Below, in pieces: positions 23,582-53,039 of a stretch of DNA of 64,000 nt (its first letter is position 1; each line of letters opens with the position of its first letter). Origin of the DNA: Dipteris shenzhenensis (lineage: Eukaryota); the NCBI GenBank assembly GCA_047967505.1, contig CM106538.1; one strand, given 5' to 3'. The position numbers and the translations under genes are program-made. The notes under the pieces are model-generated. The model made no database searches and was not told where the DNA came from. It saw nothing but the letters and a program-made list of their open reading frames with translations.

Positions 23582-23712
23582 TATGAAAGTGTGGAAAAAT
23601 GGTAGCAAAGAGAGCATTATAAGCAATACCCAACATGGAAAATACCTATGAAAGTGTGGAAAAATGGTAGCAAAGAGAGCATTATAAGCAATACCCAACA
23701 TGGAAAATACCC
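23582..23712. repeat. 65-bp tandem duplication (also at ~60042-60170)
   Basis: TATGAAAGTGTGGAAAAATGGTAGCAAAGAGAGCATTATAAGCAATACCCAACATGGAAAATACC x2. Confidence 0.95.
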
Positions 23713-26245: not shown

Positions 26246-26288
<43 letters not shown>

Positions 26289-26995
26289 CTGCTCAGTCAT
26301 GACAACACATCTCTCTTTTGCTTCGCTAGTTGTGCGCATGTGTGTGGGTTCTATCCCAGTCCCTTAACACAAAATTGTTTTTTCTTAAATATTCGTAGAC
26401 CTCAATATGTCACACTCCTAGGCTCAAAGTTTCTCCAATGACAAAAGAGTGACAAAAGAAAAGGATCAAAGTAAAAGGCTACGCAACTCAAACACTTAAG
26501 ATTTACAGTCTGATATCTTAGAAAAAGCTATCCTACGTGCAAACTTAGCCCAATCAAGAGTAAGATGTTTCTACAATATTCTACACAAATACACACACCG
26601 AATGCAAGGACGAAAGTAAAAAGCTTTTATGATTTGATGCAAAGATTGAACACTCAAGATTTAAATTTTAATATGGACCTAGAAAAATATGGGTTAGGCC
26701 AATCAAGAGCAAGATGTTGCTTGAATATTCTAAACAAACACACACAATGAATGTCAAAGCTTGAGAAAGAGAAAGACCCAAGTCAGAAGTTTATATGTTA
26801 TACTAACACATTTCCTTTTGAGTTTGAACCAAGCAATAGTACTTTTCAATTAAGAATCAAAAAAGTGGAAGGAAAATAGAACCAAGAAGAACAAAAGTGG
26901 TGGGCTAATAGAGTGTGGGATAAGATAAGGACTTTTAAGGCCATCAAAGCAAGGGGAGGAATCACTTTTAAGAATGTGCTAGGAGTCGTTGTATT

Positions 26996-33679: not shown

Positions 33680-36600
33680 AGTCATGCTTATGTTGTGGGT
33701 AGCTTGTTGGCCAAGGAGATTAGACAAAAGTTTATGGATGGCAACAAGCAGGATGCACCCTTAAAATGTGCAAAGGGGCAAATCACAATTTAGGGGGAAT
33801 TCTCAAGAAAGAGGGAAGTCTCGTAGCAAATCCAGGGCATGGAACATTGAGTGTTACCATTATGGTAAGAAGGGACACATGAAAAAGGATTGCTACAAGA
33901 CGAAAAGAGAGCAAAAGGATAAGAAAAAGAATGCAAATTGGGGTGCAAATAAGGAAGAGAGTCCAAGGGAGGACAAAAGAAAAGTGAAGATTGAGGAGAT
34001 CAATGTAGTCACTACTAATAATGACAATGACATTCTTTACATATCTAGTCTACCTACAGAGTTGCTTACCACTTCTGATGATGCATATTCCCAAGATTGG
34101 ATTTTGGATTTTGGTGCTTCATTTCATGTTACTCCCCATTGGGAATGGTTCTCCACTTATGACAGTGGAAAGGCAGGTTGTGCACATCTTGGAAATAACT
34201 ATGCATGTGACATGGTCGGAGCGGGTGACATAAAGTTTTCTTTTGCAAATAGGTCTACATTTGTTTTGAAAAATGTGATACATGTGCCTAAGCTAACCAA
34301 AAGTCTTATTTCAGTGGGTTAGCTAGATGACATTGGCTTTCATACCATCTTTGGTTTTCAAAGTTGGAAAATTCAAAAGGACTCTATGCTTTTGGCCAGG
34401 GGTGCCAAGTGTGGGACATTGTATCCCTTACATGTATCAGGGGTTGGGTGTCTAATCATGTTGTTGCCATAACTGAGCAGCCAAGTACTTCCTTGTGGCA
34501 TTGTAGGTTTGGCCATATGAGCCCGGATGGAATGAAACTCTTATGTCATTTGGGTTATGTACCGCATTTGAGTTTTTCTGACTTTGAATTTTGTGAGCAC
34601 TATCTCTATGGGAAGAAGACTAAATCAGCCCATAAAAGAAGGGGAAAGAAAGAGCTAGAAAGCTGGACTTGTTGCATTCAAATGTATGTGGTCCCATGCC
34701 TACATGGTCATTAGGCAGGGCTCTATGTGACATTCATTGATGATGTAGCTAGGAAAGTGTGGGCTTCTGCTATTGCTCAGAAGAGTGATTGTTCCAAATA
34801 TTTCAAAAATGGTTGGCTTTGGTTGAAAATCACTCAGGTAGAATGCTTAAATGCCTATGGACTGATAATGGTGGAGAGTATATCTCTCATGACTTTCAGC
34901 ATTTTTGTGATACACATGGGATCAAGAGGGAGCTCATGGCCCCTCATACTCTAGAGAAAAATCCAGTTGCAAAAAAGGTGAACTGAACCATTCAGGAAAG
35001 GTTACAATGTATGCTTTCTAATGCTAGTCTATCTGGTGGTTTTTGGGCTGAGGCAATGAAGAATGCAGTGCATGTGATCACTAAATCACCTAGTAAGAGT
35101 TTGGATGGTGGTATTCCTAAAGCAGCATGGAGTGGCAAGAAGACCCCTTACTCTCATTTGCATATATTTGGGTGTGAGGCATATGCACATGTGCCAAAAG
35201 AGCTTCAAAAGAAGCTAGATCCTATGTCTAGGAAATGCTTCTTTCTGTGTTATGGTGAAAGTGGAGAGATGGGTTATCGTCTCTGGGATACAGAAGCAAA
35301 GAAGTTCATATGCAGCCATGATGTGGTCTTCAATGAGAAGAAGATGCATAAGACACCCATGAGGGATGTGGAAATGAGGAGAGTCACTTTCCAGGATGAG
35401 AATCCACCTGCATATGTTGATAGACAACAAGTTTTCCATTCATCACATGTGCAAAAAATGGTGCAACTAGGTACTCCCATAGGTACACAATCAAGGGCAG
35501 ATGATTGATCATATATTGGTGGAAATGATGAGCCAAATGTAACTGATTTGCAGGCGAGACAGCAAGCTGAAATTCCCTTAAGAGGATCAGCCAGAGTGTC
35601 TAGACCGCCTGATAGATTTGTTCCAGGTGGCATTGACTATGTGATGCTTACTAATTGTGGGGAGCCTTCTTGCTATAGAGAGGCTATGATGCATGAGGAT
35701 AAGTGCAAGTGGGACAATTAGTATGCAATCAAAGATGAGTTCACTCGTGAAAAATAAAACGTGGGATTTGGTTTCTTTGCCACATGGAAAGAAAGCATTG
35801 CCATGTAAGTGGGTCTACAAGATGGTCACAGGTGATGATGTGCCTAAGTACAAGGCCCATTTGGTTGCTAAAGGGTTCAAGCAAGAGAAGGGTGTGGACT
35901 TTGATGAGATCTTCTCTCCGGTATGACCACACTTAGGTGTGTACTTGGACTTGTGGTAGCAGAGGATATGGAGCTCAAGATAGCTTTCTTGCATGGGATC
36001 TCTAGATGGATCTCAAGATAGCTTTCTTGCATGGGATCTACATGAGGAAATTTACATGGTGCAGCTGAAAGGCTTTGAAGAAAAGGGCAAAGAGAATTTG
36101 GTTTGCAAGCTGAAAAAGATTTTCTATGGCCTTAAGCAAGTGCCTAGAGAATGGTATCAGAAGTTTGATGCTTTCATTCGGTCCCAGGGTTTCAAAAGGA
36201 TCACTGCCTCTACACTAAAAAGGCTCAGGATAATAGCCTGGTACTCCTGGCACTTTATGTGGATGATATGCAAAATTGGCTAGCAAGAATACCTATGAGC
36301 TAGATGCATTAAAGGCCAAGTTATATGAGGCCTTTGACATGCAGGATTTGGGACTTACAAGTCATATTCTTGGTATGCACATCATGCATGATCGGAGTAG
36401 CAAACCCCTCTTATTTCATAGAAGGAGTATGCTACAAATGTATTGCATGTTTTCAATATGGAGGGGGGGAAGGCAATGAGTACTCCTTTGGATTTCACAG
36501 AAGGAGTATGCTACAAAAGCATTTCAATATGGAGGGGGAGAAGGCAGTGAGTACTCCATTGCCTCCATATGTGAAATTGAGTTAGGTAGATAGTCCCAAA

Positions 36601-37009
36601 TCAAATGAGGAGATGGCCATGATGACTAAGGTTTCTTATGCATCAACGGTTGGGAGACTTATGTATGCTATGATAGCTACTAGACCGGACATTGCATTTG
36701 CAGTGGGTGTTGTTAGCCGCGGTACATGGCCAATCCAAAAAAGAGACATTGGGAGGTAGTTAAGTGCATCATGAGGTACATGAAGGGTACCAAGGAGATG
36801 TGTATTTGCTTTGGTAGAGGAGAGATGCATGTACTTGGGTACAAATATTCAAACTATGTACTTGGGTACAAAGATTTAGACTATGTAGGGCATGTGGATC
36901 ACAAGAGATCCACTTCTGGTTATGTGTTCATGTTTGCAGGTGGTGTAGTGTCGTGGATGTCTCGTGCACAAAAGTGTGCTGCTTTGTCTACCACAGAGGC
37001 CGATTATGT
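33680..37009 (+). mobile_element. Copia E (Tnt1/Tork-like), decayed gag end to RNaseH, no LTRs
   Basis: CYHYGKKGHMKKDC knuckle, DWILDFGASFHVTPH protease, integrase, KNKTWDLV RT; RNaseH cut at STTEADYV. Same family as F. Confidence 0.92.
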
Positions 37010-37181
37010 TGTGAGAGTACTCTCTACAGAAGCAAGAATGGAAGAAGGAGAGAGAGAGATAGAGAGCCACACAAGTTTGGTGGGTGTAGAACCACCCTAA
37101 TCTTCTTTTTCATTCATTTATATATGTGTTTGAGTATTGTACATAACTGCGGTAAAGGCACAGTGACCTTTAACCCCCACA
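37010..37181 (-). repeat. 3' LTR of copia F (172 bp), PPT at 37182-37192
   Basis: TGTG...CACA termini; ACCTCCCACTT on + = PPT AAGTGGGAGGT on -; lies just downstream of pol. Confidence 0.8.
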
Positions 37182-37273
37182 ACCTCCCACTTAAAGGACA
37201 ATGTGCCTTTAAGGGAGAACAACCAGTGAGCATACTATCCAATGCCCATCAATACACGACAATACTCAAACCG

Positions 37274-40117
37274 CTAACTAGGTAGACTCTTCGTCAGCAT
37301 ATCTGCAGGGTTATCATCTGTATGAACCTTGACAAGCTCTATGCGCTTGTCCTCAAGTACCTCCCTGATGAAATGGTACTTGATCTCAATGTGTTTGGTC
37401 TTTGCATGAAAGACTGGATTCCGTGCTAGCTGAATAGCACTCATGGAATCACTATGCAATGTCGGTACACCTGTATGAATCCCCAAATCTCCCACTAGCC
37501 GATCAAGCCATATAGCCTCCTTGCAACCCTCTGTGGCTGCAACATACTCAGCCTCTATGGTAGACAAAGCAACGCACTTCTGTGCGCGAGACATCCATGA
37601 CACTGCACCACCTGCAAAGGTGAACACATAACCAGAATTGGATCTCCTACTATCCACATGCCCTGCATAGTCTGAATCTGTGTACCCAAGTACACGCATG
37701 TCTCCTTTACCAAAGCAAATGCACATCTCCTTGGTACCCTTCATGTACCTCATGATGCACTTAACTGCCTCCCAATGCCTCTTTCCTGGATTAGCCATAT
37801 ACCGGCTAACAACGCCCACTGCAAATGCAATGTCTGGTCTAGTAGCTATCATAGCATACATAAGACTCCCAACCGCTGATGTACAAGGAACCTTGGCCAT
37901 CATGGCCCTCTCCTCATCTGATTTGGGACTATCTGTATGACTCAGTTTCACATATGGATGCAATGGAGTACTCACTGCCTTCCCCCCCTCCATATTGAAA
38001 TGCTGCAATACTTTTGTAACATACTCTTTTTGTGAAAGCCAAAGGAGTTTCCTACTTCGATCACGCGTGATGCGCATACCAAGAATATGACCTGCAAATC
38101 CCAAATCCTTCATATCAAAGGCCTCATGCAACTTGGCCTTTAATGCATCTAGCTCATAAGTATTCTTGCTAGCCAATAGCATATCATCCACATATAGTGC
38201 CAGGATTATCAGGCTACTATCCTTAGCCCTTTTAGTGTAGAGGCAGTGATCAATTTCACTCCTTCTAAAACCCTGGGACCAAATGAAAGCATCAAACTTC
38301 TGATACCATTCTCTAGGCGCTTGCTTAAGACCATAGAGACTCTTCTTCAGCTTGCAAACTAAATGCTCTTTGCCCTTTTCTTCAAAGCCTTCCGGCTGCA
38401 CCATGTAAATTTTCTCATGCAAATCCCCATGCAAGAAAGCTGTCTTGACATCCATCTGCATAAGCTCCATATCCTCTAATGCCACTAGTCCAAGCATGCA
38501 TCTAAGTGTGGTCATCTTCACAACCGGAGAGAATATCTCATCAAAGTCCACACCCTTCTCTTGCTTGAACCCTTTAGCAACCAAACGGGCCTTGTACCTA
38601 GGCACATCATCACCTGTGACCTTCATTTTGTAGACCCATTTACATGGCAATGCTTTCTTTCCATGTGGCAAAGAAACCAAGTCCCAAGTCTTATTCTTCA
38701 TAAGTGAACTCATCTCTGATTGCATAGCATACTCCCACTTGCGTTGATCCCCACGCATCATAGCCTCTCTGTAGCAAGAAGGCTCCCCGCAATCAGTAAG
38801 CATCACATAGTCTACCCCTGGAACAAACCTATCAGGTGGTCTAGACACTCTAGATGATCTTCTCAATGGCATTTCAGCTTGCTGTCCCACCTGCATATCA
38901 GCCACATTTGGCTCATCATTTCCACCAATAGATGATCCATCATCTACCCTTGATTGTATACCTCTGGGAGTACTTGGTGGTACCATTTCTTGTACATTTG
39001 GTGCATGGACAGCTTGCTGTCTATCAACATATGCAGGTGGATTCACATCCTGGAAAGTGATTCTCCTCATTTCCACATCCCTCATTGGTGCCTTATGCAT
39101 CTTCTTCTCATTGAAGACTACATCATGGCTGTGTATGATCTTCTTTGCTTCTGGATCCCAGAGACGATAGCCCATCTCTCCACTTTCACCATAACCCAGA
39201 AAGATGCATTTCCTAGACTTAGGATCTAGCTTCTTTCGAAGCTCTTTTGGCACATGTGCATATGCCTCACACCCAAATATACGCAAATGAGAGTAAGAGG
39301 GCTTCTTGCCACTCCATGCCTCTTCAGGAATACCACCATCCAAACTCTTACTAGGTGATCTATTGATCACATGCACTGTAGTCTTCATTGCCTCAGCCCA
39401 AAAACCACCAGAAAGACTTGCATTAGAAAGCATGCATTGCAACCTTTCTTGAATGGTACGGTTCATCTTTTCTGCAACTGGATTTTGCTCTGGAGTACGA
39501 GGGGATGTGAGCTCCCTCTTAATCCCACGTTTATGACAGAAATGCTGAAAGTCATGAGAGAGATACTCTCCACCATTGTCAGTTCGTAGGCATTTAAGCG
39601 TTCTACCTGACTGATTCTCAACCAAGGCCAGCCATTTCTGAAATACCTGGAACACATCACTCTTCCGAGCTATAGCATAAGCCCACACTTTCCTAGTTGC
39701 ATCATCAATGAATGTCACATAGTATTCAGCCCCGCCTAATGACCGTGTAGGCATGGGACCACATACGTCTGAATGCACCAAATCAAGCATTTCAAACTCT
39801 TTCTTTCCCCTTCTTTTATGGGCTGATTTAGTCTGCTTCCCATAGAGACAATGCTCACAAAATTCAAAATCAGAGAAACTCAAATGCAGTACATAACCCA
39901 AATGGCATAAGAGTTTCATTCCATTCTGGCTCATGTGCCCCAACCTGCAATGCCACAAAGAAGTGCTTGAAGAGGCTTTACAAGGCTGAAAAATGATGTG
40001 CACGATGCCGTGAGATAGCCGAATAGGCTTTACAATGGTGGCATGTGTGTGTGAAATCAAATGATATCTGCCCACTGAACCAATCTGCAATGCCTCTGTA
40101 CTCTGAAGTCTGCTCAC
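37274..40117 (-). CDS. Copia F pol (GAG-pre-integrase, integrase, RT, RNaseH), open for ~900 codons; N-terminal ~50 aa unrelated
   Basis: LWHCRLGH, CEHC, integrase D/D/E (VHSDVCG, RTDNGGE, AEKMNRT), YVDD, RNaseH (YTDSD, EAEY, HSDSMSA, NPADMLTK). Homology to copia E starts at ~39968. A TAG appears to cut about 13 codons (RFEYCRVLMGIG* follows). Confidence 0.93.
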   Translation of the reverse strand: MSRLQSTEALQIGSVGRYHLISHTHATIVKPIRLSHGIVHIIFQPCKASSSTSLWHCRLGHMSQNGMKLLCHLGYVLHLSFSDFEFCEHCLYGKQTKSAHKRRGKKEFEMLDLVHSDVCGPMPTRSLGGAEYYVTFIDDATRKVWAYAIARKSDVFQVFQKWLALVENQSGRTLKCLRTDNGGEYLSHDFQHFCHKRGIKRELTSPRTPEQNPVAEKMNRTIQERLQCMLSNASLSGGFWAEAMKTTVHVINRSPSKSLDGGIPEEAWSGKKPSYSHLRIFGCEAYAHVPKELRKKLDPKSRKCIFLGYGESGEMGYRLWDPEAKKIIHSHDVVFNEKKMHKAPMRDVEMRRITFQDVNPPAYVDRQQAVHAPNVQEMVPPSTPRGIQSRVDDGSSIGGNDEPNVADMQVGQQAEMPLRRSSRVSRPPDRFVPGVDYVMLTDCGEPSCYREAMMRGDQRKWEYAMQSEMSSLMKNKTWDLVSLPHGKKALPCKWVYKMKVTGDDVPRYKARLVAKGFKQEKGVDFDEIFSPVVKMTTLRCMLGLVALEDMELMQMDVKTAFLHGDLHEKIYMVQPEGFEEKGKEHLVCKLKKSLYGLKQAPREWYQKFDAFIWSQGFRRSEIDHCLYTKRAKDSSLIILALYVDDMLLASKNTYELDALKAKLHEAFDMKDLGFAGHILGMRITRDRSRKLLWLSQKEYVTKVLQHFNMEGGKAVSTPLHPYVKLSHTDSPKSDEERAMMAKVPCTSAVGSLMYAMIATRPDIAFAVGVVSRYMANPGKRHWEAVKCIMRYMKGTKEMCICFGKGDMRVLGYTDSDYAGHVDSRRSNSGYVFTFAGGAVSWMSRAQKCVALSTIEAEYVAATEGCKEAIWLDRLVGDLGIHTGVPTLHSDSMSAIQLARNPVFHAKTKHIEIKYHFIREVLEDKRIELVKVHTDDNPADMLTKSLPS

Positions 40118-40781
40118 TGAACTGATGAACGGAAGGTTTCAGGTAATGTAATGATGTGAAATCGGATGTGAGCGTATGGACTGACTCCGAGTAGGTACTA
40201 GTCGGGAATTTCGGGCATGGCTTAGATTGGCAACTTGGGGAATTCAAAGCGTCCCCTCTATGGCAATCTAGTCTACTCTGATCTAGATCTAAACCAACCG
40301 TCGATCGATGAAAGAGCAGCAAATAATTCCTTTTCTTTTGTTCTTTTTAAGTGCTGGGTCAGATGCGTCGATGTAGAGGCAAATGTGCGTGAAGGAAGTG
40401 GTTTTGTCGGCGAGGCTCAAATGTGAGTGTAACTTGCGCCGAAATGTGCACGTGATGTAACGAGCGCGTAGAGCACGAAAAATCGAGCGACTTTCCTTTT
40501 TGGATCACCCTCAAATTCTTCCTGGATCAAGAGATATGACTTGATCTAGGTGGAGGGGCAAAAGGAGTGTAAATGGTGCTCAATGATGATGTGTCACTGT
40601 GAGTCACATGCAGTGATGATGTGGCACTGTGCTTAGCAAGAGGTGTGCCAGTGAAGCTCTGTGCTGAGGTGGCAGGAGTGTGCACATGCAGTGTGTGCAC
40701 AGTGTGCCTGGCAAGGGACTGTGCCTGCAGAGGGTCAGTGCTGACTGGACTGCTGAGGTGGCACAAATGATGTCAGCAGGG

Positions 40782-40947
40782 TGACGTGGCAATGCTGACG
40801 TGGCACAGGTGACGTGGCATATGTGACGTGGCTGATGACGTGGCACAGGTGACATGGCAATGGTGACATGGCAGAGGATAAGACAGGTACACGTGGCACA
40901 TCCGGGTGCCTGATGACATGGCAATTGGAGATAAGGTTGCCACGTGT
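40782..40947. promoter_or_regulatory. Cluster of G-box/ABRE-like (ACGTGGC) and I-box-like (GATAAG) motifs
   Basis: TGACGTGGC x5, TGACATGGC x3, ACACGTGGC x2 (one inverted), GATAAG x2 in 166 bp. Function is not shown. Confidence 0.55.
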
Positions 40948-41085
40948 TTGGTTTCTAGGATCGACGGAATCTTCTCAAGATGCCGACGGAATCTCAGGAT
41001 TCCGTCCGTCGTCTCTCCCGTTTAGTTGCAGAAGCTAAAGGCGAGCGGAAATACTGAAAAGATCTTTCAGGTCAACACAGTTCCG

Positions 41086-41225
41086 ATGAAGACCTGGCCT
41101 GAGTTGGTAGGATTGTCAGGTGAGGAAGCCAAAGCGATGATCTTGGCAGAAAATCCTCATTTCCAAGTTGTATTACTGCTCGAGGGCTCCTTTGTAACTT
41201 TCGTCGTGAGCGTGTTCGTGTCTTC
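41086..41225 (+). pseudogene. Potato inhibitor I family serine protease inhibitor fragment
   Basis: MKTWPELVGLSGEEAKAMILAENPHFQVVLLLEGSFVT, then frameshifted FRRERVRVF; matches the WPELVG...VT.D.R.DRVR.F signature. Confidence 0.9.
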
Positions 41226-41488
41226 CTTGCCCCACAGGAGTCTGAGACGTTAACCCATCCATGATCCTCCCATGGAAACAGCGGCAACTTGCAACTTGCA
41301 GAGGGTGAAGTTCCCGATGACAAGCCGCCCAGGGCAGGGCGGCATTTGCACTGTACAGCGAAGGCACCTCGGGTTTATGAGTAAGGCCGGCTTTCACATT
41401 CCTTGCTACAAAAAATGGCAGAAGCTTGGAGGTCCGTCGCTGTACGTGGGAATCGACCAATGGTTCGAGGAGATTCCTCTGCTCAGCT

Positions 41489-41730
41489 ATGGTGCACGTT
41501 AGCTTCTATCGCAATTATGGAAAAACATTTTTAAAAAAAACCGCGCAGGCCGTATGAGAAAGAGCGTCTGGACGCAGAGTTGAAGCTAGTTGGAGAGTAG
41601 GGTCTCCAAAATAAGCGCGAACTGTGGAGAGTGCAATATGCGCTTAGTCGTATGCGTAACAATGCTCGATTACGTCCTGGCTTTGACGGTCGAGAACTTC
41701 TTGGAGCATCGTCTACAGACCTTAGTATAT
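41489..41730 (+). pseudogene. RPS9: 40S ribosomal protein S9 (uS4) fragment, internally deleted
   Basis: [57 protein letters not shown] joined to DYVLALTVENFLEHRLQTLVY; frameshift, a stop and a deletion of roughly 35-40 codons. Confidence 0.95.
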
Positions 41731-42399
41731 TCGTTGCGGCTTTTCTGTCGTCGAGGCGTTGCGTGGCCAGAGAGCTTAGGCTCTCGTTGAATAGTGCAGT
41801 TCGTTGGAGCATGCACGCTGCCTTGCTTTGGAGAAGCTTCACTGAGAGCGTGGCTCGGCTTGTAGACGGGCCAAGCTCTTTGGTGCGTTAGCTATGAAGC
41901 TTGGGAGAAGGTCATTTGGAGAGCCTCATCCATGGCACAGCTTGGTGGCAGTCCGTAAAGGTCGCTGCAGCTGGTAGAGCGCTTGGGGACCTTGGAGCGT
42001 GTTGGAGATGGCAGAGTCGTGCTTGCTGAGCGTGAAGAAGAGATTCTCTCAAGAAAACCTTACAGAAACTTAGAGGCTCAGAAATGAACCTTTCTCTCTC
42101 ACAAAACCTTACAAGATCTCTGAAAAGACTAAGATCCAGATCTCTCTTTCTCTCATAAACAAGGAATACTCTCTTTCTCAAGCAATGAAATCTTGCAAAG
42201 AACTCAAAGAAAGAATAATGGACGGAGCTGTCCTAGAATGAGCAAAGGAGATTAACGGAAATCTCTCAATCTCTCATGGACGGAAACTTCTCTCAACGGA
42301 AGTGAAGGGAAGGATCTCACAATCACTCAAGAGAACTCTCAATCTCACAATCTCTCTCACACTCTCAAGAAACTCAATGTCTCAGCGGAAGACAAGGAA

Positions 42400-42668
42400 G
42401 CTCTGATACCATGACAAAATATGAAGAGGGGAGAGGAGAAGAGTGGAGATGAGGAGAGAGGGCACAGCTAGAGAGCACACCACAAATGACTAACTGTACA
42501 CTAGAATTAGTTGAAAAAATAGAATATATACAAACCCTTTTAGGGTTAGGGTTAGGGGATCTAACCCTTTCCTTTATAGCACTTTATAAGGTTAGTGCTA
42601 TGCACATATGATCACGTGATGGTGCTATGCACACATGATCACATGATGTTGAGCGTGAACTCTCAACA
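42400..42668 (-). mobile_element. PBS (42400-42411) and 257-bp 5' LTR (42412-42668) of element G
   Basis: GCTCTGATACCA directly followed by TGACAAAA...TCTCAACA. Contains TTTAGGGTTAGGGTTAGGG and a 27-bp tandem repeat. No matching LTR in the window. Confidence 0.8.
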
Positions 42669-44388
42669 GTTCCCTACGCTGTTCATGTTTCATGGACAAT
42701 TTGGCAATTAGAAAGTCCTCATCTTGACCAATTCAAGAGTTTAGAGGACATAATCTCCATCAACGCAGCCAAGAGAGCTCAGCTCACACTCCACCACGGA
42801 AAAGGTGGACCCAAAGGCAGGATTCACAAGCCAGAGTGTCAAGAGTAAGAAGAAGGCAAATGAAGCTACTTTGAAGATCTCCAATTGGGTAGATAGCAGG
42901 ACTCTCCAAGTCGCTGCACACAGGCAGGCAGTGAACGTCATTCTAGCTGCTCACTGGTGGCACCAGTTTGAAGTTCAATCCAATTACAGCAAGTAGGGGT
43001 TGGATCTCACTATTCCAGGAATCTGTTGCAAGTACATAGCAGGCATTTAGGATGCACATTCCAGGAGTCTGTTGCAAGTACAACCCTGCAGCCAGACGTT
43101 GCAGCAGCTCAGTATATTTCTCGAAATATGGGTCAAAATTTCACAACTGGATGCTTCCGCAGAGTTCCTAGTACTGCAGCCAACCACTGTCTTTGGATGC
43201 TTAGTGGTGATCTGGTTCACTGCTCCTATCGCTGCCTCAAACTAAGCTTAGCTCGTGGAGTGTCAGTGGCCTCACATGGGGAGCCCCTTTGTATAGGTGA
43301 GGAGGGACTCAGTCTGTCCCCCCCAAACCAACTGGCCAACTGGCCTTCTCACAGACTGGCCCGTAAACAGCCGACCGGCAGACCCTATGCTCTGTCAAAA
43401 TGCTGACTGCTCTGTGGGTTTGACAAGCCCACAGACTGCCCTCTTTGGCCCATCCAAGATAGGCCCCATATATAGGCCCTTGGCTGGTGTCCATCTGCCC
43501 CAGCATCGGCCGATTTTATGCCACTATGCTGGCATTTGTCCGCAGCCCATATGGGCTCATTAGATCCCCATCCTCTGGTGCAGATCTGCCAGCCTCTCCA
43601 GTTGGATCTTGCTGCCTATGTGGCAGCCCATCTTGTCCTCTTTTCTACACATTCTATGCTGCTCACATGTCAGCCTACACGCTGTCCACATGGCAGCCTC
43701 TCTTGATGCTACAATCTTCCCACTAAGCTGCCCACATGTTGGCCCTTTAGCTGTCCACATGGAAGCCCTTGTATGTGGCGTGCATATCTCATGCCCACAT
43801 GGCTATCTCAAATGCCGTCCCCCATTCTATAGGGGCACCATGTCCCAATGCTCATCATTTGGTCCCTCTACGCCAACACCCCTAGTTATTGTCACGCTCT
43901 GGACCCGCATTGACCCAAAGACATAACCACTCCATTTACTCAGGAACACATTGAGAAGGCTGTTGGAATCTTGTTCAGATGCCTACATACATTGCGTCTT
44001 TATGTCTAGCTCTCCATAATCCTTGAACTTCATAAATCAAACAGAACACAGGTACCTACACTTCACCATCATTCAATTGCACTATCAATATCCATCACAA
44101 ACGCACTAGGTACACAAGACACCCAGGTATAACTAGTAGGTACATCCAATTGTCAACACTTGAAGCTAGGAACAAGCTAGAGTGCAAAGTACCATAGGTC
44201 ATCGATAACTAGCACGATCTGCAATCACAATCCTCTAGAAACTTTGGACCCTCGAATTTGTGACGGCTGTCTTTTCAATAGACTTCGAACTTCCAAGTTA
44301 GTTGGTGATTCTTGTGTCACAAAGTTTAGCAACTCTATGAGAAGGATGGCCTTGAGAGAGGATAAAAGATCTCTTGGGAGAAGGGATC

Positions 44389-45473: not shown

Positions 45474-46885
45474 TGTTGGAGAGTGGGAGAGAAGATGAAC
45501 ATCATGGAGAAGAGTGTGGAAACCAAATGGTAAAATGTTCCATTGAGTTGAGAGGAAGTCCTCTCTTTTATAGAATGGGAGAGAGGATGGCCTAAATCAA
45601 TGGCACCTCTCCTACATCAAAGTAGACCAGAACTCTGAACGCACTTGACTGAACCTAAGTCACCCTCCTTCTCGCAAGGAGTCTATGGCACTAAGTGTGC
45701 CTCGTTTACATACACACACGCAACCATATGATTGCTAGTGGATGCACACATACACCTAGTAAGCCCTTGATCACACATATCTCAACATACCTCCCCTCAA
45801 GGGTTTGCCTCATGCTATGTCAAGGATACATCTAGTCACATAGTTTCTCATGCCATCTCTTGGTGGTCAAGGATAAATCTATGGCTAAGATCTCATGCTA
45901 GCAAAGGTGCCCAAGGGTCAAGGTTTACAAAAATGGGATAGATCAAACACATATCACATGGCCTACATCTTATGGTGACCAGAGGTGATTTACAAAACAC
46001 AAAACACATGACATTCTTTTGGAGTACTATTCCAGGGAGAGAATCTAAAAAATTGACCAAGTGATGATAAATAAAGTTCAAAAGACAAAGTGCTCAAAAA
46101 GCATAGTCTTTATCTTCTACCGCAAAGTTTGATTCTTCATTTGTTGATGGAGTTCTCTCTTCAGCTTGATTTTCCATGTTTTTCATTATAAAACTTCTTT
46201 GAATGATTGTTCTTGTCACAAAAAGTGCAAGGATGGATTTTGTAGCAATCTTTTCAAGATGATTGGTCTTTTCACAATGCTTGCATGCCTTGTACTTGCT
46301 CTTTGATGAAAACTTTACTGTAAGTGCTTGTGTGTGCACTTCACCCATTCTTGAAATGTTCTTTCTCTCTTCCTCTTATAGAGCATTGATGATGCCCTCT
46401 AGTGTGGGTTGAAGAAGATTCTTCAAGGTAGTCAGAACATAATCATAGTCTTGAGGCATACTCTTCAAGAGCACAACCATAACATCATCTTCAGTAATTG
46501 GAGAGTTGATTGAGACCAATTGTGTCATAAGGCTCCTCAAAGTACTAACATGAGCGGCAACATTGCCTCCATCCATCTTAGGTTCAAAGAACTTAATTTT
46601 CAAATTCAACTTAGAAGTATGAGAGCTAGTACCAAATAACACATCGAACTTCTGCTAGGCCTCAAGAGGGGATTCCAAATCTGAAATATGATGCACATAA
46701 TTATCTCACAAACCTAATGCAATAATTGCATAAGCTTTCTCTAGCCTTTTAGCATCTGTAGGTGTAGTTGAAGAAGAGTCACTTGCTTTCCCCTTACCTT
46801 TGGTTGTGGTGGATTCACCTTCTTGAGATGATTGATTCCTTGACTTGAGAAAGTCCCACAAATTCTCTTTCATAAGCACAAAGTC
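45474..46885 (-). mobile_element. Gag-only copia-derived element H: decayed gag, PPT, 3' LTR (45474-45787)
   Basis: TGTTG...CAACA termini; PPT TTGAGGGGAGGTA on - at 45788-45800; gag MDGGNVAAHVSTLRSLMTQL...LLKSMPQDYDYVLTTL and CKHCEKTNH knuckle at 46094-46860; no pol recognised in between. Confidence 0.75.
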
Positions 46886-46890
46886 GCTTG

Positions 46891-48064
46891 TGCACTCTTG
46901 TTGAAGAAAGCTTATTTTTTCAAATAAAGGTTTTCATTTTAGAAATAAAAAAGGGGCTTGAGAAAGGCCAAAATCATCTTGTGGTGCTGACTTGGGAAGG
47001 TGTGTTAAAATCCTACTAAAAGGTCAAGGCATAGTATTAGTGTTGCAAGTAAAAGGAAAGTGTGTGTGTGTGGGGGGGGGGGGGTGCAAGCAAATGGTTG
47101 TGTTTGTGTGCGTGTGTGCACATGTGTGACATAGTTACATGCCCAAGCATATGCACATAGGCATTGTAAGCTCATGGGCATGCTTGTATGCACAAAACTT
47201 GAATGAAAACTTCACACATCTAGGTGTAGAAGTAGTGGGCCTAGTTCATGATTTGTGGCTGAGCAATCCTTACTGATTGTTGTGGCACTATAGCCGCATG
47301 ATGGTCTGTATGCTTGATTTGAGCTAGTAATTGGACCACCCTAGCCGATCTGATCATATCCTCCTGAATGATATCGGTGAAATTTACATGGCCTTTGTTT
47401 CATTTGCGGTCATATCGACATATCGGTCCCACAATCTTCTCTAAGCCTTGCACCTATGCATACCTTCCTGAAATTATTGGCAGGCCCAACCTTGCGCGGA
47501 CCACATCAATGCTGAAGTGATGATTTTTGGCCCTCCCCTATGCGTTATGAAGGATGCACATTCGGGTCCCCATGTTGACAATTTTGAACAACTCACCCAT
47601 CAAATCAATGTCAATGTGACAAGGGAGGCGTTCAGCGATTGGCTATAGCTCGTTGTTCTTATGAGCAGGTGCCCTTGAATGGTGTCATCTCTCAAGATGT
47701 CGTAGGTCGCTACAGTGTGAAGACTCTCACCTTTCCCCTCTCCCTTTCACATGTGCTCTTCCCATCCCACGTTTCATGTTCAAGTGAGTGCATCACACAT
47801 GTTGCATGCAACTCATGGAACATCACACAAGGGCATGAGCATGTTACTAAACAAGAAGGTACTCAATGGGAAAGCAAGAACGTCTCAAAATGCTTTACTT
47901 CCAAAGGTAAAATATGAGAACGCACAATGTGTCTCACTATAGAAATGCCAACGTCGACTATGATTGAGCACCACTTCCCATATACTCACCCCATCTCAAT
48001 AGAGCTTGAGCTCCTACTCAAGCGTAAGGGGCGTAGACACAAAAGTTTAGCCTCAAACACGGTT
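46891..48064. repeat. Dispersed ~1.17-kb direct repeat, copy 2
   Basis: Colinear with 5240-6397. Confidence 0.85.
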
Positions 48065-48829
48065 CACGTGTCTTGCACCATGGTACCAATCCAACGTAGC
48101 ATGCCGCTCCAAGTCTCGGATCTCATTTCAACTTGGACCTATTCCTCCTGAAAGCCCAACTTGTTCATCATAACCCGGCCTCGTCCCTTGGCACCACATC
48201 GTCCGCTAGCTCGAGGCATCATCCCATCATCTTTCACCTTCTAGTCTTTAACGTAACTATAGGTCACCGTACAACCCGACCTGTGCACCAAAGCCCTATT
48301 CATCACGACGTTGTTCTGCGCCGATGTCTCTTTCTTTTGCACCTAGTTCGCTGCCTGTTCCCTTGTGACCCACCTGGCCACCTTCTCATGGCACTGAACT
48401 TGCCCGATCTCTGTGCACCTATAAACAAGTTTGCGTCCTCTTGGGCCCAAACTGTTCCACTTCGCAGCGCGCCTCGTTGCATGCGCAACCTTCCCACAGT
48501 CATGCCACGTCGTTGCGCATTGTACCTTTGTTCTTCAACTGATATATCATACTTAAGAGCTTGAACATCAACATTTGGGCTCATCTCGCCCAACGCATCG
48601 TCCGATCCTAGGCCTTGCTCGCCCACCTGCTTGCCCGGTTGCACTAGCCCACTTGGGCTCACCTTGCCCTTTTCATTCACTTGCTTTTGTTCCCTGTGGC
48701 CTTGCTCGCCGCTCTACACATGTTCCTTGTGTCTCGTCTTGCCACTTTGCTATGCATCCAAACAGCCCCGCGCGCCGTTTCCCACAAGCTCCTTGCGGCT
48801 CATCTCGCTGCCCTAACTCGGTTCCACAC

Positions 48830-49160: not shown

Positions 49161-49939
49161 CCACACCGCTTTCCACACTATCATCCGAGGCACACCTGCC
49201 CGTCTTGGCCACATGCCACAACTCCCCTTGAGCCCGCTTCCTTGGTCACTTCTTTTGAGCGCTCAGCACTCCACGTTACCCGCTTCTTCACAACCTGCTT
49301 GTCGATCATCTAAGCGAGGCTGCTTTGTGCTAGACCATGACTTGGCACCTTTGCATTCTTGTCCACCACACTTGCAGCTTCCCGTTTCAGTGCAACCATT
49401 CCCTTGTACCTTGAAGCCCCACCAAAGAGGATGGCCTTGAAGCCCCACCAAAGAGGATGGCCAATCCTTGGGCTAATAGGAGCAATCAAGAAGTTCTTCT
49501 CCACATGAGTCGGATCCAAATGAGTCAGATCCATTGAGCTCTTCCTCATTTGAGGCTTCCCTTTTCGTTCACTGTCTGGATCATCTGCCGCTTCCAACTC
49601 TTCCTTCAGGTACACACCATAGACCAACTTAAATACAACAAAGAACTCACGGTGCCACCTCGTCGTTCCATCTTCTGTTTTGAACATATGAACCAACTTC
49701 TGAAGGTGGCCCATGTCCTTGTTGATCAGCACGTTCACCCAGTCTAGAGCCGTTTTCAGCATCTGCACCACCCTCCGCGTGACGGATTCATCACTTGTAT
49801 CATCTAGGAGACCTAGACCCATTCGCTTTGCCTTGGCCATGCCAAACCAGTAACTTGATCCTGGACCACCATCTCTCAAGTTTGCTGGCAACCACACAGG
49901 GTGGTAGCTCCATTCATCCACGAACTGCTCTAAACAATC

Positions 49940-51325
49940 ATGGAAAGGGGGGTAGACACATGCGCGCAAGAGGGAGGGGGGTGGGGGGCAAGGGGGGGAG
50001 GGCATGCGCGCAAAGGGGGTGAGGGGTTGCGCATGCCCGCACGGGGGAAGGGGGGGGATGTGCGCATGCACGCAAGAGGGAGGGGGTGGGGGGCGGGTGC
50101 GCATGTGCGAAGGTGGGGGGGGCAAGGGGAGAAGGGGAGGGAGGTGTGCACATGTGCAAGAGGGGGGAGGCACATGCACGCAAGGTGGGGGGGGCGAACA
50201 TGTGTGCAATAGGGTGCACATGCACGCAAGAGTTTTGGGGGGGGGAGCATGGGGGGAGGGGGGGCATGCACACAAGGTGGTGTGTGTGGGGGGGGGGGGG
50301 GGGGAGGGCATGTGTGCAAGGGGTGGGGGGTGCCCACGCATGCAAGTCGGGGGGTGCGCATGCATGCAAGAGGGCAGGGGGCCATGGGGACAAACAAGCG
50401 GGGGGGAGGGTACCCATGTACGCAAGAGGGAGGGGGGTGGGGGGGTGGCACACGCGCATGGAGGAGGGGGATGCGAGGTGCACATGCATGCAGGGGGGGG
50501 CATGGGGACAAGGGGGGGTGTGGGTGCGCATGCATGTAAGGTGGGGGAGGGGCATATGTGCAAGGGGGGGTGCGCACAAGTGCAAGAGTGGGGGCGCATC
50601 CTTGCAAGGTGGGGGGCATGGGGAGAATGGGGGAGGGGTGCGCATGCACGCAAGGTGGGGGGCATGTGTGCAAGGGGGAGGGGGGTGCGCATGTGCACAG
50701 GGAGGGGGCTTCGCATGCACGCACGGAGGAGGGGGGTGTGCCTACACACAAGGGTGGGGGTGCACATGTGCGCAAGGGGGGGGGCATGCATGCAGGGGGG
50801 CGTACTCGCTCAAAGTGGGGGGAGCATGTGTACAAGGGGGGGTGGGTGTGCATGTGTGCAAGAGGGGGGGTTGTGCATGCGTGCATGGAGGAGGGGGTGC
50901 GCACACATGTAAGAGGGGAGTGCGCATGCGCACAAGACTTGGGGGGCGGGGGAGGGACGGGGAGAAGAGGGGGGGTGCGCACAAGGAGGGTGGAATGGGG
51001 ATAGGGGGGGGAGATGAGTGCAAGGGGGCGAGGTGCGCGTGCGCACAAGGTGGGTGGGTGGGGGTACACATGCGTGCAAGAGGTGGGGAGGGATGCATGT
51101 ACACACACATGCAATAGGGGGGTTTGGGGGGGGCATGTGTGCCACGGGGTTTCGCATGCGTGCAAGGAGGGGGGGCATGGGGGAGGCAGACTGGGACAAG
51201 GGGAGGGGGGTGCATATGCATGCAAGGGGGGACGGGTGGGGGAGGTTGCATATGTGCTCAAGGGGGAGGGGGGGGTGGGGACAAAGGGGGGGGTGCATAC
51301 GTGCAAGGAAGGGGGGGCACGCAAG
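49940..51325 (+). repeat. G-rich degenerate satellite (~20-30-bp unit: G-run + TGCGCATGCACGCAA-like core)
   Basis: Dozens of G4-G10 runs alternating with purine/pyrimidine cores (GCATGC, TGCGCA, TGCACA); extreme G/C strand skew. Confidence 0.92.
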
Positions 51326-52317
51326 CTCAGGCATGGAAGAGCAAGGAATGGTGTCCGAGGTCAAGGGAAAATGGATGTTCGAGATAAGTAGGTTACAAAA
51401 AACCGATGCTCTCACATGAAGAGGATGTCGTGCCATTGCAGCGGTTCAAGAATCGTCTCGATCCAAGTTCATATGCAAAAGTTATGACCTCTCAAAGTCG
51501 AGGGTTTGGGCGATGCACGGGAGGTCAGGTGTGCCGGAGGGGTGTCTGGGCTGACGCAAGAGTTCAAGGCATGCCGAGGAAGTGCGATCAAGAGGGGATG
51601 GCGATGCGTCGGAGGTCGGGATGGGGGCAAATCGGGAGAAGGCGAGGTGGAGGGTGATGTGGGGTGTGTTTGGCAGCAATGTGATTGGGGACGACATAGA
51701 TACACGAGGGCAAGGTTGGGGGCGATGCGAGGAGAGGGGCGCATCAAGCAATGGTGCATGTAGCACCGGAGGCAGGGTGGGCGATGGTGTAGTTGAGCAT
51801 GGCACAAGGGGTGGGGCAACCGCGCTGCAGGGACATCGAAGATAGGCACGATTGAGGGTGATGCGAGTGGCACGGGTGATAGAGCAGGAACGTTGGCGAC
51901 GATGCAGGTGACATGGTGGGGCATGGGCGAAGTCGGGGCGACATGAGTAGCACGGGCTGCATCCAACAATAAGAGAGGGGTGAGGCATGTCAGGCTATAG
52001 TAGCGAGACCAGGGAGGATGCAGGGTAGGGGCGTGATGGGCGTACGAGGGCTTGGGCAATCGGGTGACGCAAGTGGTATAGCGCTATGCACAGAGGCGAG
52101 GCCGAGGCAACAAGGGGAACGGTGCATCGACAAGGGATGGGGTGGGTCACACAAGCACTGAGGGAGGGGTGCTAGGCAGGACTCTATGATGTGCGGAGGG
52201 GGGGTGTGTCGAGCAACGGTGAGGCCGAAGGCGGTGCGAGTGGCACAGCAAGCAGGCATGGGTGATGCAAGCGGCAGGGGCACAATGCGTCGAGTTATCA
52301 AGGGTGAGGGGGGGTAG

Positions 52318-53039
52318 TGTAAGAAAATAATACAACGTCTGTGCTCAATAGATAACAGGATCTCGTACGCAAGAGAGAAAAACAGATAGTATGGAGAATC
52401 AAATATTTTATATTACTGTAGAACTGATACAATAGATGGCGCTGCCTCCCAACCGTGTGCTCCTGTGAAAGAAGCTTCGATGGCAAGCTGGAAACAGTAG
52501 AGGACAGAGGCTGGATGCTAAGGAATCAAGGTTGCTGTAGCCAATGATAAAACGGGCTTCACGGGCTTGCTCTTATATAGCCACCAGTCGTAGTCAGTTA
52601 GACCCAATTAGGTAACCGACCCAGTCTGCCCAAAATGGTCGACTAGGGGTCGGTCCTGAAATAGGCCACCGACCACACGATAGAATTGGTGCACAAAATA
52701 GAGCAACTAACCGACGACGTTCGGCCCACAGCCATCCGGGATCATCTGGGACTCCAAACGGGCCTTGCAACCCGAGAGTGGGGGCTACCTCGAGAAAAGC
52801 TCTATCTACCCTCAATGCGGTCAGTCATGAGATGCCTTCCCGCACTTGCATGTAGCCTAGTTGACAGTGTGCCAACTTCGTCCAGCCATCAGGCCACACA
52901 TGGGCCCCATCTGGTGTTCAAACTAGGACCTACCGGATAACCGAGCTACTCAAATGCCTTCTCCTCATATGGGGGGCTTACAAGTAGAGTTAGCTGGTTC
53001 CCACATAGTTACACAAGAGTGGAGCATTGATATCTAACA
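52318..53039 (-). repeat. 3' LTR of copia C (722 bp)
   Basis: TGTAAGA...TCTAACA; left flank GGTAG; followed by C8-TCAA (PPT on -). Confidence 0.92.

What the first reader, a model, noticed from the sequence alone, without database searches (positions are those of the whole stretch)
39970..42668. Gene-capturing ('pack'-like) LTR element carrying several unrelated host-gene fragments in antisense
Seen: downstream of a 257-bp LTR and iMet PBS (minus strand) there is no gag or protease. Instead ~650 bp holds a potato inhibitor I fragment (41086-41225), an unidentified 260-bp piece and an RPS9 fragment (41489-41730) packed end to end. All are antisense to the element and none shows an intron. RPS9 has an internal deletion at a GCTCGA junction. 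Known: LTR retrotransposons can capture mRNA by RT template switching. Inference: a non-autonomous LTR family serially acquired cDNA pieces, and its transcript would be antisense to housekeeping and defence genes, so it could yield trans-acting siRNAs.
Basis: partly seen in the sequence, partly recalled or inferred. Interest (0 to 1): 0.8.

Follow-up and report, generated by a model that had tools for sequence, protein, structure and literature searches.

The report
Retrocopied gene scraps beside truncated LTR
Decayed, reverse-transcribed pieces of a ribosomal-protein mRNA and a protease-inhibitor mRNA lie stitched together inside the stump of a plant LTR retrotransposon, which is a common kind of genomic debris rather than a shown gene-carrying mobile family.

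Summary
The observation largely holds. On the minus strand there is a 257-bp LTR (42412-42668, TG..CA) and a tRNA-Met primer site (42400-42411). No gag or protease follows before 39970. On the plus strand lie a potato-inhibitor-I piece (Pfam 3.3e-11) and an RPS9 piece (residues 1-60 and 94-118). The "unidentified 260 bp" is mostly (41228-41422) the 5' leader and start codon of the same inhibitor mRNA. It is placed after the coding piece instead of before it, and the two are joined by a 6-base overlap. So the cargo is two genes in three pieces, a template-switch patchwork of transcripts, now decayed by a frameshift, a stop and deletions.

The LTR has no partner in the 64-kb window, and no 3' LTR or target-site duplication was found. 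At 39969|39970 the region abuts a 5'-truncated, unrelated copia pol with a different 170-bp LTR. No second copy of the cargo or its junctions appeared in the three contig-kept runs laid (X1, X2, X7). The LTR and a neighbouring repeat (39970-~40950) are multi-copy. Antisense cargo contradicts the standard capture model. siRNA function is untested. Gene-fragment capture by plant TEs is well known, so interest is low to moderate.

The parts
42412..42668 (-). LTR-B: 257-bp long terminal repeat with TG..CA ends. It holds (TTAGGG)x3 and a 27-bp x2 repeat. It belongs to a multi-copy family.
   Evidence: Sequence read; repeats. Runs X1, X2 and X7 cover it at summed depths of 124-1045. Their flanks diverge at 42668, and a match stops at 42412.
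42400..42411 (-). Primer-binding site TGGTATCAGAGC (tRNA-Met type).
   Evidence: the same 12-mer is given as the tRNA-Met PBS of copia families in PMC3852365.
41729..42399 (-). Non-coding interior. The TGAGAG/CTCTCA-rich leader-like part runs 42399 to ~42030. A stretch of unknown origin covers ~42030-41729. There is no gag.
   Evidence: No Pfam hit in its frames. Almost no depth in X1, X2 and X7 between 41820 and 42303.
41489..41728 (+). RPS9 (uS4) retrocopy piece covering residues 1-60 and 94-118. About 33 codons are lost at 41668|41669. There is a frameshift in the A-run at about 41529-41541 and a TAG stop at 41598-41600.
   Evidence: PDB chains of plant uS4; transcript contigs and RNA reads run on into the missing part after 41668 and go on past 41728..
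41423..41488 (.). 66 bases not assigned to any source.
   Evidence: No contig of X1, X2 or X7 laid on it, by the depth arithmetic. No Rfam hit.
41228..41422 (+). Inhibitor mRNA piece A: 5' untranslated leader plus ATG (41415) and 5 more bases.
   Evidence: record 14 of X2: 1 other letter in 195. In the transcript it lies 83 letters upstream of piece B.
41033..41233 (+). Inhibitor mRNA piece B: coding part of a potato-inhibitor-I protein. It has a 7-base deletion after 41196, is cut short at 41233, and overlaps piece A by TGCCCC (41228-41233).
   Evidence: Pfam PF00280 at 3.3e-11. record 14: 8 other letters and a 7-letter insert in the transcript..
40951..41032 (.). About 82 bases not assigned to any source.
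   Evidence: No depth beyond record 14 in that bin. No Pfam or Rfam hit.
39970..40950 (.). R2: unclassified multi-copy repeat with a 14-bp ACGT-core tandem array (40780-40873). Other copies continue past 39970.
   Evidence: array; depth in X1, X2 and X7, a loose end at 39970 in X1, and array-length joints in X2. No Pfam hit.
37274..39969 (-). Copia-A: 5'-truncated Ty1/copia pol (pre-integrase, integrase, RT, RNase H) in one open frame. It is joined bluntly to R2 at 39969|39970.
   Evidence: 954-aa frame. (RVT_2 2.9e-75, rve, gag_pre-integrs, SH3). (homology to the + strand copy stops at 39969). (X7 copies run on differently after 39969).
37012..37192 (-). Copia-A polypurine tract (37183-37192) and its 170-bp 3' LTR (37012-37181). 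This LTR is unlike LTR-B.
   Evidence: no meaningful alignment to LTR-B. The PPT resembles those tabulated in PMC3852365.

Best explanation
This is a single, decayed chimeric retrocopy. Reverse transcriptase copied abundant cell mRNAs and hopped between templates at short overlaps. It copied RPS9 from codon 118 back to the start, skipping about 33 codons. It then copied the inhibitor mRNA from its third codon back into the 5' leader. It then copied the same mRNA species again, from mid-coding region back towards the start. The resulting patchwork sits where gag and protease should be, behind the 5' LTR, primer site and leader of a copia-type element (LTR-B family). That makes it an LTR-retrotransposon-associated retroposition of the Bs1 / 'LTR-mediated retroposition' kind. 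The copy has since lost its 3' part. A rearrangement joined it at 39969|39970 to an unrelated, 5'-truncated copia. The cargo has also picked up a stop, frameshifts and mostly C-to-T type changes.

Shown: the parts, their transcript origin, the out-of-order join and the truncation.

Inferred: that the hopping happened during this element's own replication. Because the cargo is antisense, that would require the growing strand to be the element's plus strand. Nothing shows that the copy ever moved again or that it makes small RNA.
For: 1. Pfam and PDB matches identify the two genes.
2. A transcript-like contig of run X2 (850 letters, depth 860) holds 41228-41422 and 41033-41233 in the opposite order, with 83 letters between them. 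In the window the two pieces overlap by TGCCCC.
3. From the ATG at 41415, the 8 + 83 + 53 bases to the ATG at 41086 total 144, a multiple of three. This fits piece A being the true mRNA start (inference).
4. RNA reads of X21 and contigs of X2 continue into the missing RPS9 part after 41668. The window resumes at a shared (G)CTCG.
5. All three pieces point the same way, and every hop fits one growing strand.
6. No gag or protease lies between the primer site and 39970.
7. The sources are abundant RNAs in X2, with RPS9 at depth about 8000 and the inhibitor at 860.
8. Of the 9 listed letter differences to X2 within the cargo, 7 have T or A in the window where the transcript has C or G. This is as expected for decay of a silenced copy.
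9. Published cases have the same features: partial mRNAs replacing internal ORFs, a median 6-bp microsimilarity, and multi-gene chimeras (PMC5131818, passages). Bs1 is described in the review PMC13317346 (passages).
Against: 1. The cargo is antisense to the LTR. The published model, a switch between co-packaged RNAs during first-strand synthesis, gives sense cargo.
2. Only one LTR-B is present. There is no 3' LTR, polypurine tract or target-site duplication for it.
3. The junctions between element sequence and cargo (41728|41729 and 41032|41033) cannot be checked for overlap, because the neighbouring 600 and 82 bases have no known source.
4. The window's interior at 41820-42303 is not seen in other LTR-B copies in X1, X2 or X7. 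It is therefore unclear that it is element sequence at all.
5. Intron loss is not shown.
6. X2 is only guessed to be RNA and may be a sister species.
Confidence: 0.45

Rival explanations
1. Later filler. The patchwork of cDNA pieces (possibly including the R2 piece) was made by stray reverse transcriptase or a repair polymerase. It was then stitched into a chromosome break between two already integrated, truncated elements (the LTR-B stump and copia-A). On this reading the LTR is only a neighbour.
For: - Orientation is free under this model, so antisense cargo needs no special pleading.
- The locus is demonstrably rearranged. There is a blunt join at 39969|39970, a tail-to-tail copia pair broken at 37011|37012, and no matching target-site duplications.
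- All identified filler sources (RPS9, the inhibitor, R2) are abundant in run X2.
- The interior at 41820-42303 is absent from other LTR-B copies.
Against: - About 1.7-2.3 kb is long for filler DNA (recalled, not tested).
- The position exactly where gag should be, and the same direction for all pieces, fit capture inside a particle at least as well.
- No empty site is available.
Confidence: 0.3
2. A non-autonomous LTR family carries this cargo, has moved with it, and its transcripts give antisense or small RNAs against RPS9 and inhibitor genes.
For: - The LTR-B family is multi-copy and close to this copy. X1 contigs differ by 1-2 letters in 110-187.
- LTR-B and R2 are strongly represented in the presumed RNA run X2.
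- siRNA cross-talk between captured fragments and donor genes is described for maize (bioRxiv 10.1101/777037, abstract in listing). It is also described for gymnosperms (PMC13477047, abstract and passages).
Against: - There is no depth at all on 40973-42182 in the DNA runs X1 and X7. In X2 only the parent transcripts cover the cargo, and no contig bridges a cargo junction.
- This copy lacks a 3' LTR.
- No small-RNA data were seen.
Confidence: 0.1
3. The cargo belongs to another carrier. R2, with its tandem array, is the end of a DNA transposon (Pack-type or Helitron) or of a plus-strand retroelement that carried the gene pieces in sense. LTR-B merely landed or was joined next to it.
For: - R2 is an independent multi-copy repeat with subterminal-like 14-bp repeats, directly left of the cargo.
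- The cargo would then be in sense.
Against: - No terminal inverted repeats or target-site duplication flank the cargo.
- R2 is cut at 39970, and no LTR/PBS-like end lies at ~40950 (sequence read).
- The out-of-order mRNA pieces argue for an RNA route, which is not typical of Pack-type capture.
Confidence: 0.1
4. Assembly artefact: cDNA or chimeric reads mis-joined into the assembly.
For: No run laid spans the cargo junctions.
Against: The pieces carry pseudogene-type decay relative to transcripts: a stop, a 7-base and an approximately 99-base deletion, an A-run frameshift, and 1-8 substitutions per piece. Fresh cDNA contamination would not show this.
Confidence: 0.05

Closest known systems
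Bs1 of maize, an LTR retroelement with transduced pieces of three host genes (described in review PMC13317346, passages seen)
   Same: A gag-poor LTR element interior that holds partial, intronless-looking pieces of unlinked host genes. More than one capture event or switch is involved.
   Different: Bs1 is bounded by two LTRs, its cargo forms a sense hybrid ORF, and it is expressed. Here there is one LTR, the cargo is antisense, no ORF survives and no expression is shown.
LTR-mediated retroposition by microsimilarity-guided template switching (Tan et al. 2016, PMC5131818, passages seen)
   Same: Partial mRNAs replace internal ORFs, about 6-bp overlaps occur at switch points, and chimeras of two or more parent genes form.
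   Different: The model needs both LTRs and gives cargo in the element's sense. Here the overlaps could be checked only at the two cargo-internal joins, not at the element-cargo joins.
Complex or chimeric LTR elements made by abnormal template switching (Sabot and Schulman 2007, PMC1950507, abstract seen)
   Same: Two different LTR families (LTR-B at the 5' side, LTR-A at the 3' side) lie on one strand with a shared interior.
   Different: The flanks give no common target-site duplication (GGAAC upstream, TAATC or CAACA downstream). A single integrated complex element is therefore rejected here.
Genome-wide gene-fragment capture by plant TEs and donor-gene siRNA cross-talk (PMC13477047, abstract and passages; rice and sorghum PMC3726574, title and abstract in listing only; maize bioRxiv 10.1101/777037, abstract in listing)
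   Same: A host exon fragment lies inside a TE in a TE-rich plant genome. The idea that TE silencing may spill over to donor genes is also shared.
   Different: Those are surveys. No small-RNA or methylation evidence exists for this locus.

Membership tests
Ty1/copia-type LTR retrotransposon (for the LTR-B unit) | LTR with TG..CA ends followed by a tRNA primer-binding site | tested here: met
   42412-42668 runs from TGTTGAG to TTTTGTCA, followed by TGGTATCAGAGC. The terminus is confirmed by diverging flanks. The PBS identity comes from PMC3852365.
Ty1/copia-type LTR retrotransposon (for the LTR-B unit) | Second, matching LTR with a polypurine tract | tested here: not met
   BLASTN of 39970-42668 against the 64-kb window gives only the self hit. 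The window self-comparison shows no partner. The nearby 170-bp LTR-A does not align.
Ty1/copia-type LTR retrotransposon (for the LTR-B unit) | Target-site duplication | tested here: not met
   The right flank is GTTCC. No matching 5-mer lies at any candidate left end, whether 39970 or 37012.
Ty1/copia-type LTR retrotransposon (for the LTR-B unit) | gag and pol behind the leader | tested here: not met
   None of the 61 frames hit gag or protease. The pol at 37274-39969 belongs to another family, because homology and copies break at 39969.
LTR-mediated retroposition chimera (Bs1 type) | Partial host mRNA in place of internal ORFs | tested here: met
LTR-mediated retroposition chimera (Bs1 type) | Short overlaps at switch points | tested here: inconclusive
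   A 6-base overlap (TGCCCC) lies at the piece B/A join. A 4-5 base overlap (G)CTCG lies at the RPS9 deletion, with the right-hand parent sequence inferred. The element-cargo joins cannot be tested.
LTR-mediated retroposition chimera (Bs1 type) | Cargo flanked on both sides by the same element, in the element's sense | tested here: not met
   The cargo is antisense. The left side is R2 followed by an unrelated copia.
LTR-mediated retroposition chimera (Bs1 type) | Loss of parental introns | not testable with these tools
   No genome is held. Only colinearity with transcripts is shown.
LTR-mediated retroposition chimera (Bs1 type) | Secondary copies (moved again) | tested here: inconclusive
   None appears in X1, X2 or X7. 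X1 holds only 1.95 million letters, and X7 matches are mostly under 95% alike.
LINE-type processed pseudogene | 3' poly(A) tail and target-site duplication | tested here: not met
   No A-run follows 41728 or ~42030, and there are no flanking direct repeats.
Pack-type DNA transposon or Helitron cargo | Terminal inverted repeats with a target-site duplication, or Helitron ends, around the cargo | tested here: not met
   No inverted repeat pair brackets 40950-42400.
Potato inhibitor I family (PF00280) | Domain match above the curated cut-off | tested here: met
   44.1 bits against 24.5, covering profile positions 3-40 of 64. The C-terminal part is lost to a 7-base deletion and the cut at 41233.
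Ribosomal protein uS4/S9 (eukaryotic) | Sequence match to solved plant uS4 chains | tested here: met
   Three colinear pieces match at E 0.002, 7e-6 and 2.9e-6. The piece is not a working gene, given the stop, the frameshift and the deletion.

The most novel reading that the evidence does not exclude
The antisense layout is not an accident. The pieces were captured while the element's plus DNA strand was being made. The growing strand (LTR, primer site, leader) left the minus-strand cDNA and copied cell mRNAs inside the particle. That gives an element whose own transcript is born antisense to RPS9 and to a defence protease inhibitor. If such copies were amplified, they would be a ready source of trans-acting small RNAs against housekeeping and defence genes.
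Probability: 0.08. Interest if true: 0.6.

Novelty: new member of a known kind. Interest (0 to 1): 0.27.

Why it matters
If the plain reading holds, this is one more example of a very common process. A 2026 survey reports about 400,000 TE-borne gene fragments per gymnosperm genome (PMC13477047, abstract). The locus matters mainly for annotation. The RPS9 and inhibitor pieces are pseudogene scraps and should not be called as genes.

It is a neat small record of template hopping, because one mRNA was copied twice and out of order across a 6-base overlap. Only the antisense placement is unusual. If that placement proved to be the product of plus-strand capture and to recur in a family, it would add a route by which LTR elements make antisense RNA to host genes.

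Tried and rejected
- **No whole genome.** None is held for this window, so the decisive genome-wide copy search could not be run.
- **Earlier findings of the scan.** None by place, by relatives or by words.
- **Sequencing-run search.** No run holds half or more of the stretch's words; the best share was 0.22. No RNA holder is listed for the stretch.
- **Protein search with the 75-aa inhibitor frame.** No candidate shared three 5-residue words. Only proteins of 41-132 aa were searched, so this says nothing about novelty.
- **Metagenome scan with the 20-mer across the PBS and LTR end.** It returned 67 loci. BLASTN of window 37000-43500 against all 67 gave 0 hits at E 1e-5. They share only the common copia PBS motif and are of no use for this family.
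- **Rfam and ARAGORN.** Rfam on 39900-42750 gave 0 matches at E up to 1. ARAGORN on 36000-44000 gave 0 tRNA genes. The unassigned 66- and 82-base spacers are therefore not recognisable small RNAs.
- **Idea: 42668 to 37012 is one integrated complex element (LTR-B ... LTR-A).** Rejected. The LTRs do not align and the flanks give no common duplication.
- **Idea: 40951-41032 is a displaced piece of the leader.** The only match is 13 of 14 bases (40963-40976 against 42279-42292), with an E-value of 5.5. Not significant.
- **Two contig joints that link R2 to the LTR (40051 to 42412 in X2; 40632 to 42439 in X7).** Each comes from one contig with only 24-29 letters on the short side. They are too weak to show that R2 is the LTR-B family's interior. 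The similar R2:LTR depth ratios in X1 and X7 (about 0.2-0.45) are only suggestive.
- **Rice retrogene paper (PMC1533979).** Not held.
- **Rice/sorghum capture paper (PMC3726574).** A term search found 0 occurrences of 'orientation', 'antisense', 'opposite' or 'intron'.
- **Supplements.** None were opened. The supplementary data sets of PMC5131818 may state cargo orientation case by case.

Full report
**Setting**

The window is plant-like and packed with retrotransposons. Pfam finds Ty1/copia gag, protease-barrel, integrase and RVT_2 pieces at many places, plus RVT_1. No whole genome is held for it, so everything below rests on three sources: the 64-kb window, public runs laid on it, and profile and literature searches.

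**Anatomy on the minus strand**

- A 257-bp LTR (LTR-B) runs from 42668 to 42412, starting TGTTGAG and ending TTTTGTCA.
- The next 12 bases, 42411-42400, are TGGTATCAGAGC. This is the primer site complementary to tRNA-Met that PMC3852365 tabulates for nine Jatropha copia families (passages).
- LTR-B is a real, multi-copy repeat with a true terminus. In the laid runs, contigs of X1, X2 and X7 cover 42304-42666 at summed depths of 42-1430.
- One X1 contig and four X7 contigs match up to 42668 and then run on into unlike, mutually different sequence. One X7 contig's match ends exactly at 42412.
- X1 contigs differ from the window's LTR by 1-2 letters in 110-187. This copy is therefore close to the family's common form.
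- Behind the primer site comes a TGAGAG-rich, non-coding, leader-like stretch.
- Of 61 stop-to-stop frames of 30 aa or more across 39832-42845 on both strands, none hits gag or protease. The only meaningful hit is the inhibitor.

**The cargo, on the plus strand**

*The inhibitor piece.*
- Frame 41026-41250 hits the potato inhibitor I family: PF00280, E 3.3e-11, 44.1 bits against a cut-off of 24.5, profile positions 3-40 of 64.

*The RPS9 piece.*
- Three colinear frames match solved plant uS4/S9 chains.
  - 41489 onward matches residues 1-16 (E 0.002).
  - 41601-41668 matches residues 37-60 (E 7e-6).
  - 41669-41728 matches residues 93/94-118 (E 2.9e-6).
- The piece is broken in three ways.
  - An A-run at about 41529-41541 shifts the frame.
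  - 41598-41600 is a TAG stop.
  - About 33 codons are missing at 41668|41669.
- RNA-seq reads of run X21 (10 reads) and contigs of X2 match up to 41668 and then continue into what reads as the missing part of RPS9.
- X2 contigs also continue past 41728 into more RPS9.
- The window's join reads GCTCG|A. The shared (G)CTCG on both sides is partly my inference, because I saw only the left-hand parent sequence.

- One X2 contig (record 14, 850 letters, depth 860) matches 41228-41422 with 1 other letter in 195.
- The same contig matches 41033-41233 with 8 other letters, and it carries a 7-letter insert after 41196.
- In the contig the first block lies upstream of the second, with 83 letters between them (tables 5 and 8).
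- Restoring the 7 letters puts the reading frame back on the inhibitor family's pattern. After 41233 the contig goes on into what reads as the family's C-terminal end (my reading of the loose end).
- Block 41228-41422 ends 8 bases after an ATG at 41415. The sum 8 + 83 + 53 is 144 bases to the ATG at 41086, a multiple of three. Block A is therefore most simply the mRNA's 5' leader and true start.
- In the window the two blocks are swapped and overlap by six bases, TGCCCC at 41228-41233.
- The cargo is thus two genes in three pieces spanning 41033-41728 (696 bp). It also includes a 66-base spacer (41423-41488) and about 82 bases (40951-41032) that I could not assign. Neither shows an Rfam family.

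**Is it RNA-derived?**

- X2 is only guessed to be RNA. Its profile fits a transcriptome (my inference): RPS9 at about 8000, the inhibitor at 860, and almost nothing on the copia pol.
- X21 is a declared RNA-seq run.
- The pieces are colinear with transcripts, begin or end at non-splice-like positions, are partial, all point the same way, and are joined at short overlaps.
- These are the published hallmarks of reverse-transcriptase template switching: partial mRNAs, a median 6-bp microsimilarity and multi-gene chimeras (PMC5131818, passages).
- Intron loss itself could not be tested, because the parent gene structures are not available.
- Of the 9 letter differences to X2 listed inside the cargo, 7 have T or A in the window where the transcript has C or G. 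The table was truncated, so these are only the listed ones. That bias, together with the stop and the deletions, argues for an old, decaying genomic copy and against contamination.

**What bounds it**

*The left side.*
- 39970-~40950 (R2) is a different multi-copy repeat. X1, X2 and X7 all cover it.
- R2 carries a 14-bp ACGT-core tandem array whose length varies among copies in X2 (joints).
- An X1 copy of R2 continues leftward past 39970 into sequence unlike the window.

*The join at 39969|39970.*
- Here R2 meets a Ty1/copia pol on the same strand as LTR-B.
- The pol is a 954-aa open frame with pre-integrase, integrase, SH3, and RVT_2 at 2.9e-75.
- Its homology to a decayed plus-strand sister copy (33.7-37.0 kb, 84-87% identical) stops exactly at 39969.
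- X7 copies of this copia run on differently after 39969.

*The copia's own 3' end.*
- The copia has its own polypurine tract (37183-37192) and a 170-bp LTR (37012-37181), confirmed.
- That LTR does not align with LTR-B.

*No partner for LTR-B.*
- LTR-B has no partner anywhere in the window.
- No target-site duplication pairs 42669-42673 with either candidate left end.
- The stretch is therefore the 5' stump of one element, followed by cargo, a foreign repeat, and then a truncated second element. It is not a bounded 'pack' element.

**Copies elsewhere**

- In the DNA runs X1 and X7 there is no depth at all on 40973-42182.
- In X2 that span is covered only by the parent transcripts, in their own arrangement.
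- No contig in these three runs bridges 41233/41228, 41668|41669 or 41728|41729.
- This is weak evidence. X1 holds 1.95 million letters, so only high-copy repeats are assembled. X7 matches are mostly under 95% alike, so it is probably a relative. Contigs also drop rare variants.
- The window's interior at 41820-42303 is likewise absent from other LTR-B copies. Where an X1 contig ends at 42331, however, its 34 extra letters still look homologous, with an indel (my reading).

**Mechanism**

- Every hop fits one DNA strand growing from right to left on the map and complementary to the mRNAs:
  - RPS9 from codon 118 to codon 94;
  - a skip to codon 60, then on to the start;
  - the inhibitor mRNA from codon 3 back into its leader;
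  - a jump back to the inhibitor's mid-coding region, then on towards its start.
- That growing strand is the window's minus strand, which is the sense strand of LTR-B.
- In the standard model, the first (minus) DNA strand switches between co-packaged RNAs, so the cargo ends up in the element's sense (PMC5131818, model passage).
- Antisense cargo therefore needs one of two things. Either capture occurred while the plus strand was being made, or the patchwork was made elsewhere and placed here later, for example as filler at the break that also produced the 39969|39970 join.
- I cannot separate these two routes. I put capture during this element's replication at about 0.4-0.45 and later insertion or filler at about 0.3.
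- That the pieces are a reverse-transcribed template-switch patchwork I hold at about 0.85.

**Comparison with what is known**

- Bs1 of maize carries pieces of three host genes (review PMC13317346, passages).
- The review PMC13317346 cites a study reporting 1343 transduced sequences in sorghum LTR elements (passage). For that study itself (PMC3726574) I saw only the title and abstract in a listing, and a term search that found nothing on orientation.
- Pepper NLR retroduplication is reported in PMC5664825 (listing only).
- A 2026 survey counts about 400,000 TE-borne gene fragments per gymnosperm genome and discusses silencing conflicts with donor genes (PMC13477047, abstract and passages).
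- The siRNA idea is likewise in print for maize (bioRxiv 10.1101/777037, abstract in listing).
- This locus is thus a new instance of a known kind. The out-of-order double use of one mRNA, and the antisense placement, are its only unusual traits.

**Verdict**

The cDNA patchwork next to an LTR holds up. The family, the serial capture of several genes and the siRNA role do not.
- Interest is low to moderate.

Noticed in passing
window 33700-37011 (+) and 37012-39969 (-): Two copies of one copia family lie tail to tail. The plus copy is decayed by many stops and is cut inside RNase H at 37011. The minus copy keeps a 954-aa open pol frame plus its PPT and a 170-bp LTR. They are 84-87% identical. 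The rest of the plus copy is not in the window.
   Followed up: partly
window 42540-42557 and 42595-42648: LTR-B contains three telomere-like TTAGGG units and a 27-bp unit repeated twice.
   Followed up: no
window 40780-40873 (array), 40560-40950 (wider): A 14-bp tandem array with a TGACGTGGCA-like ACGT core (6.9 copies) lies inside the multi-copy repeat R2. Contigs of run X2 show copies with different array lengths. It looks like a stack of bZIP/G-box-type sites (recalled, not tested).
   Followed up: partly
window 39970-40730 and 42304-42666 versus 39400-39969: In run X2 (guessed RNA), R2 and LTR-B reach summed depths of 476-3205, while the copia pol next door has 0-60. R2 and LTR-B may be transcribed, or may belong together, but this is unresolved.
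   Followed up: partly
window 52318-57174: An apparently complete small copia on the minus strand has 306-bp LTRs that are 91% identical (52318-52623 and 56871-57174). Pieces of gag, protease-barrel, integrase and SH3 lie between them.
   Followed up: no
window 21828-26498 and 57250-61953: A 4.7-kb inverted repeat at 95% identity. No Pfam hit in its frames of 90 aa or more.
   Followed up: no
window 49300-51450: A GC-rich block (GC 0.64, strong GC skew) has long open frames on both strands (up to 499 aa) and internal direct repeats. No Pfam hit.
   Followed up: no
window 5233-6403 and 46884-48070: A 1.2-kb direct repeat at 87% identity. Each copy lies upstream of a minus-strand copia gag (3025-3651 and 46379-46654). 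These are probably LTRs of a third copia family.
   Followed up: no
loci L001-L067: The 20-mer spanning the tRNA-Met primer site and the LTR end occurs exactly in 67 metagenome contigs that share nothing else with window 37000-43500. The motif is generic to many plant copia elements that contaminate metagenomes.
   Followed up: yes
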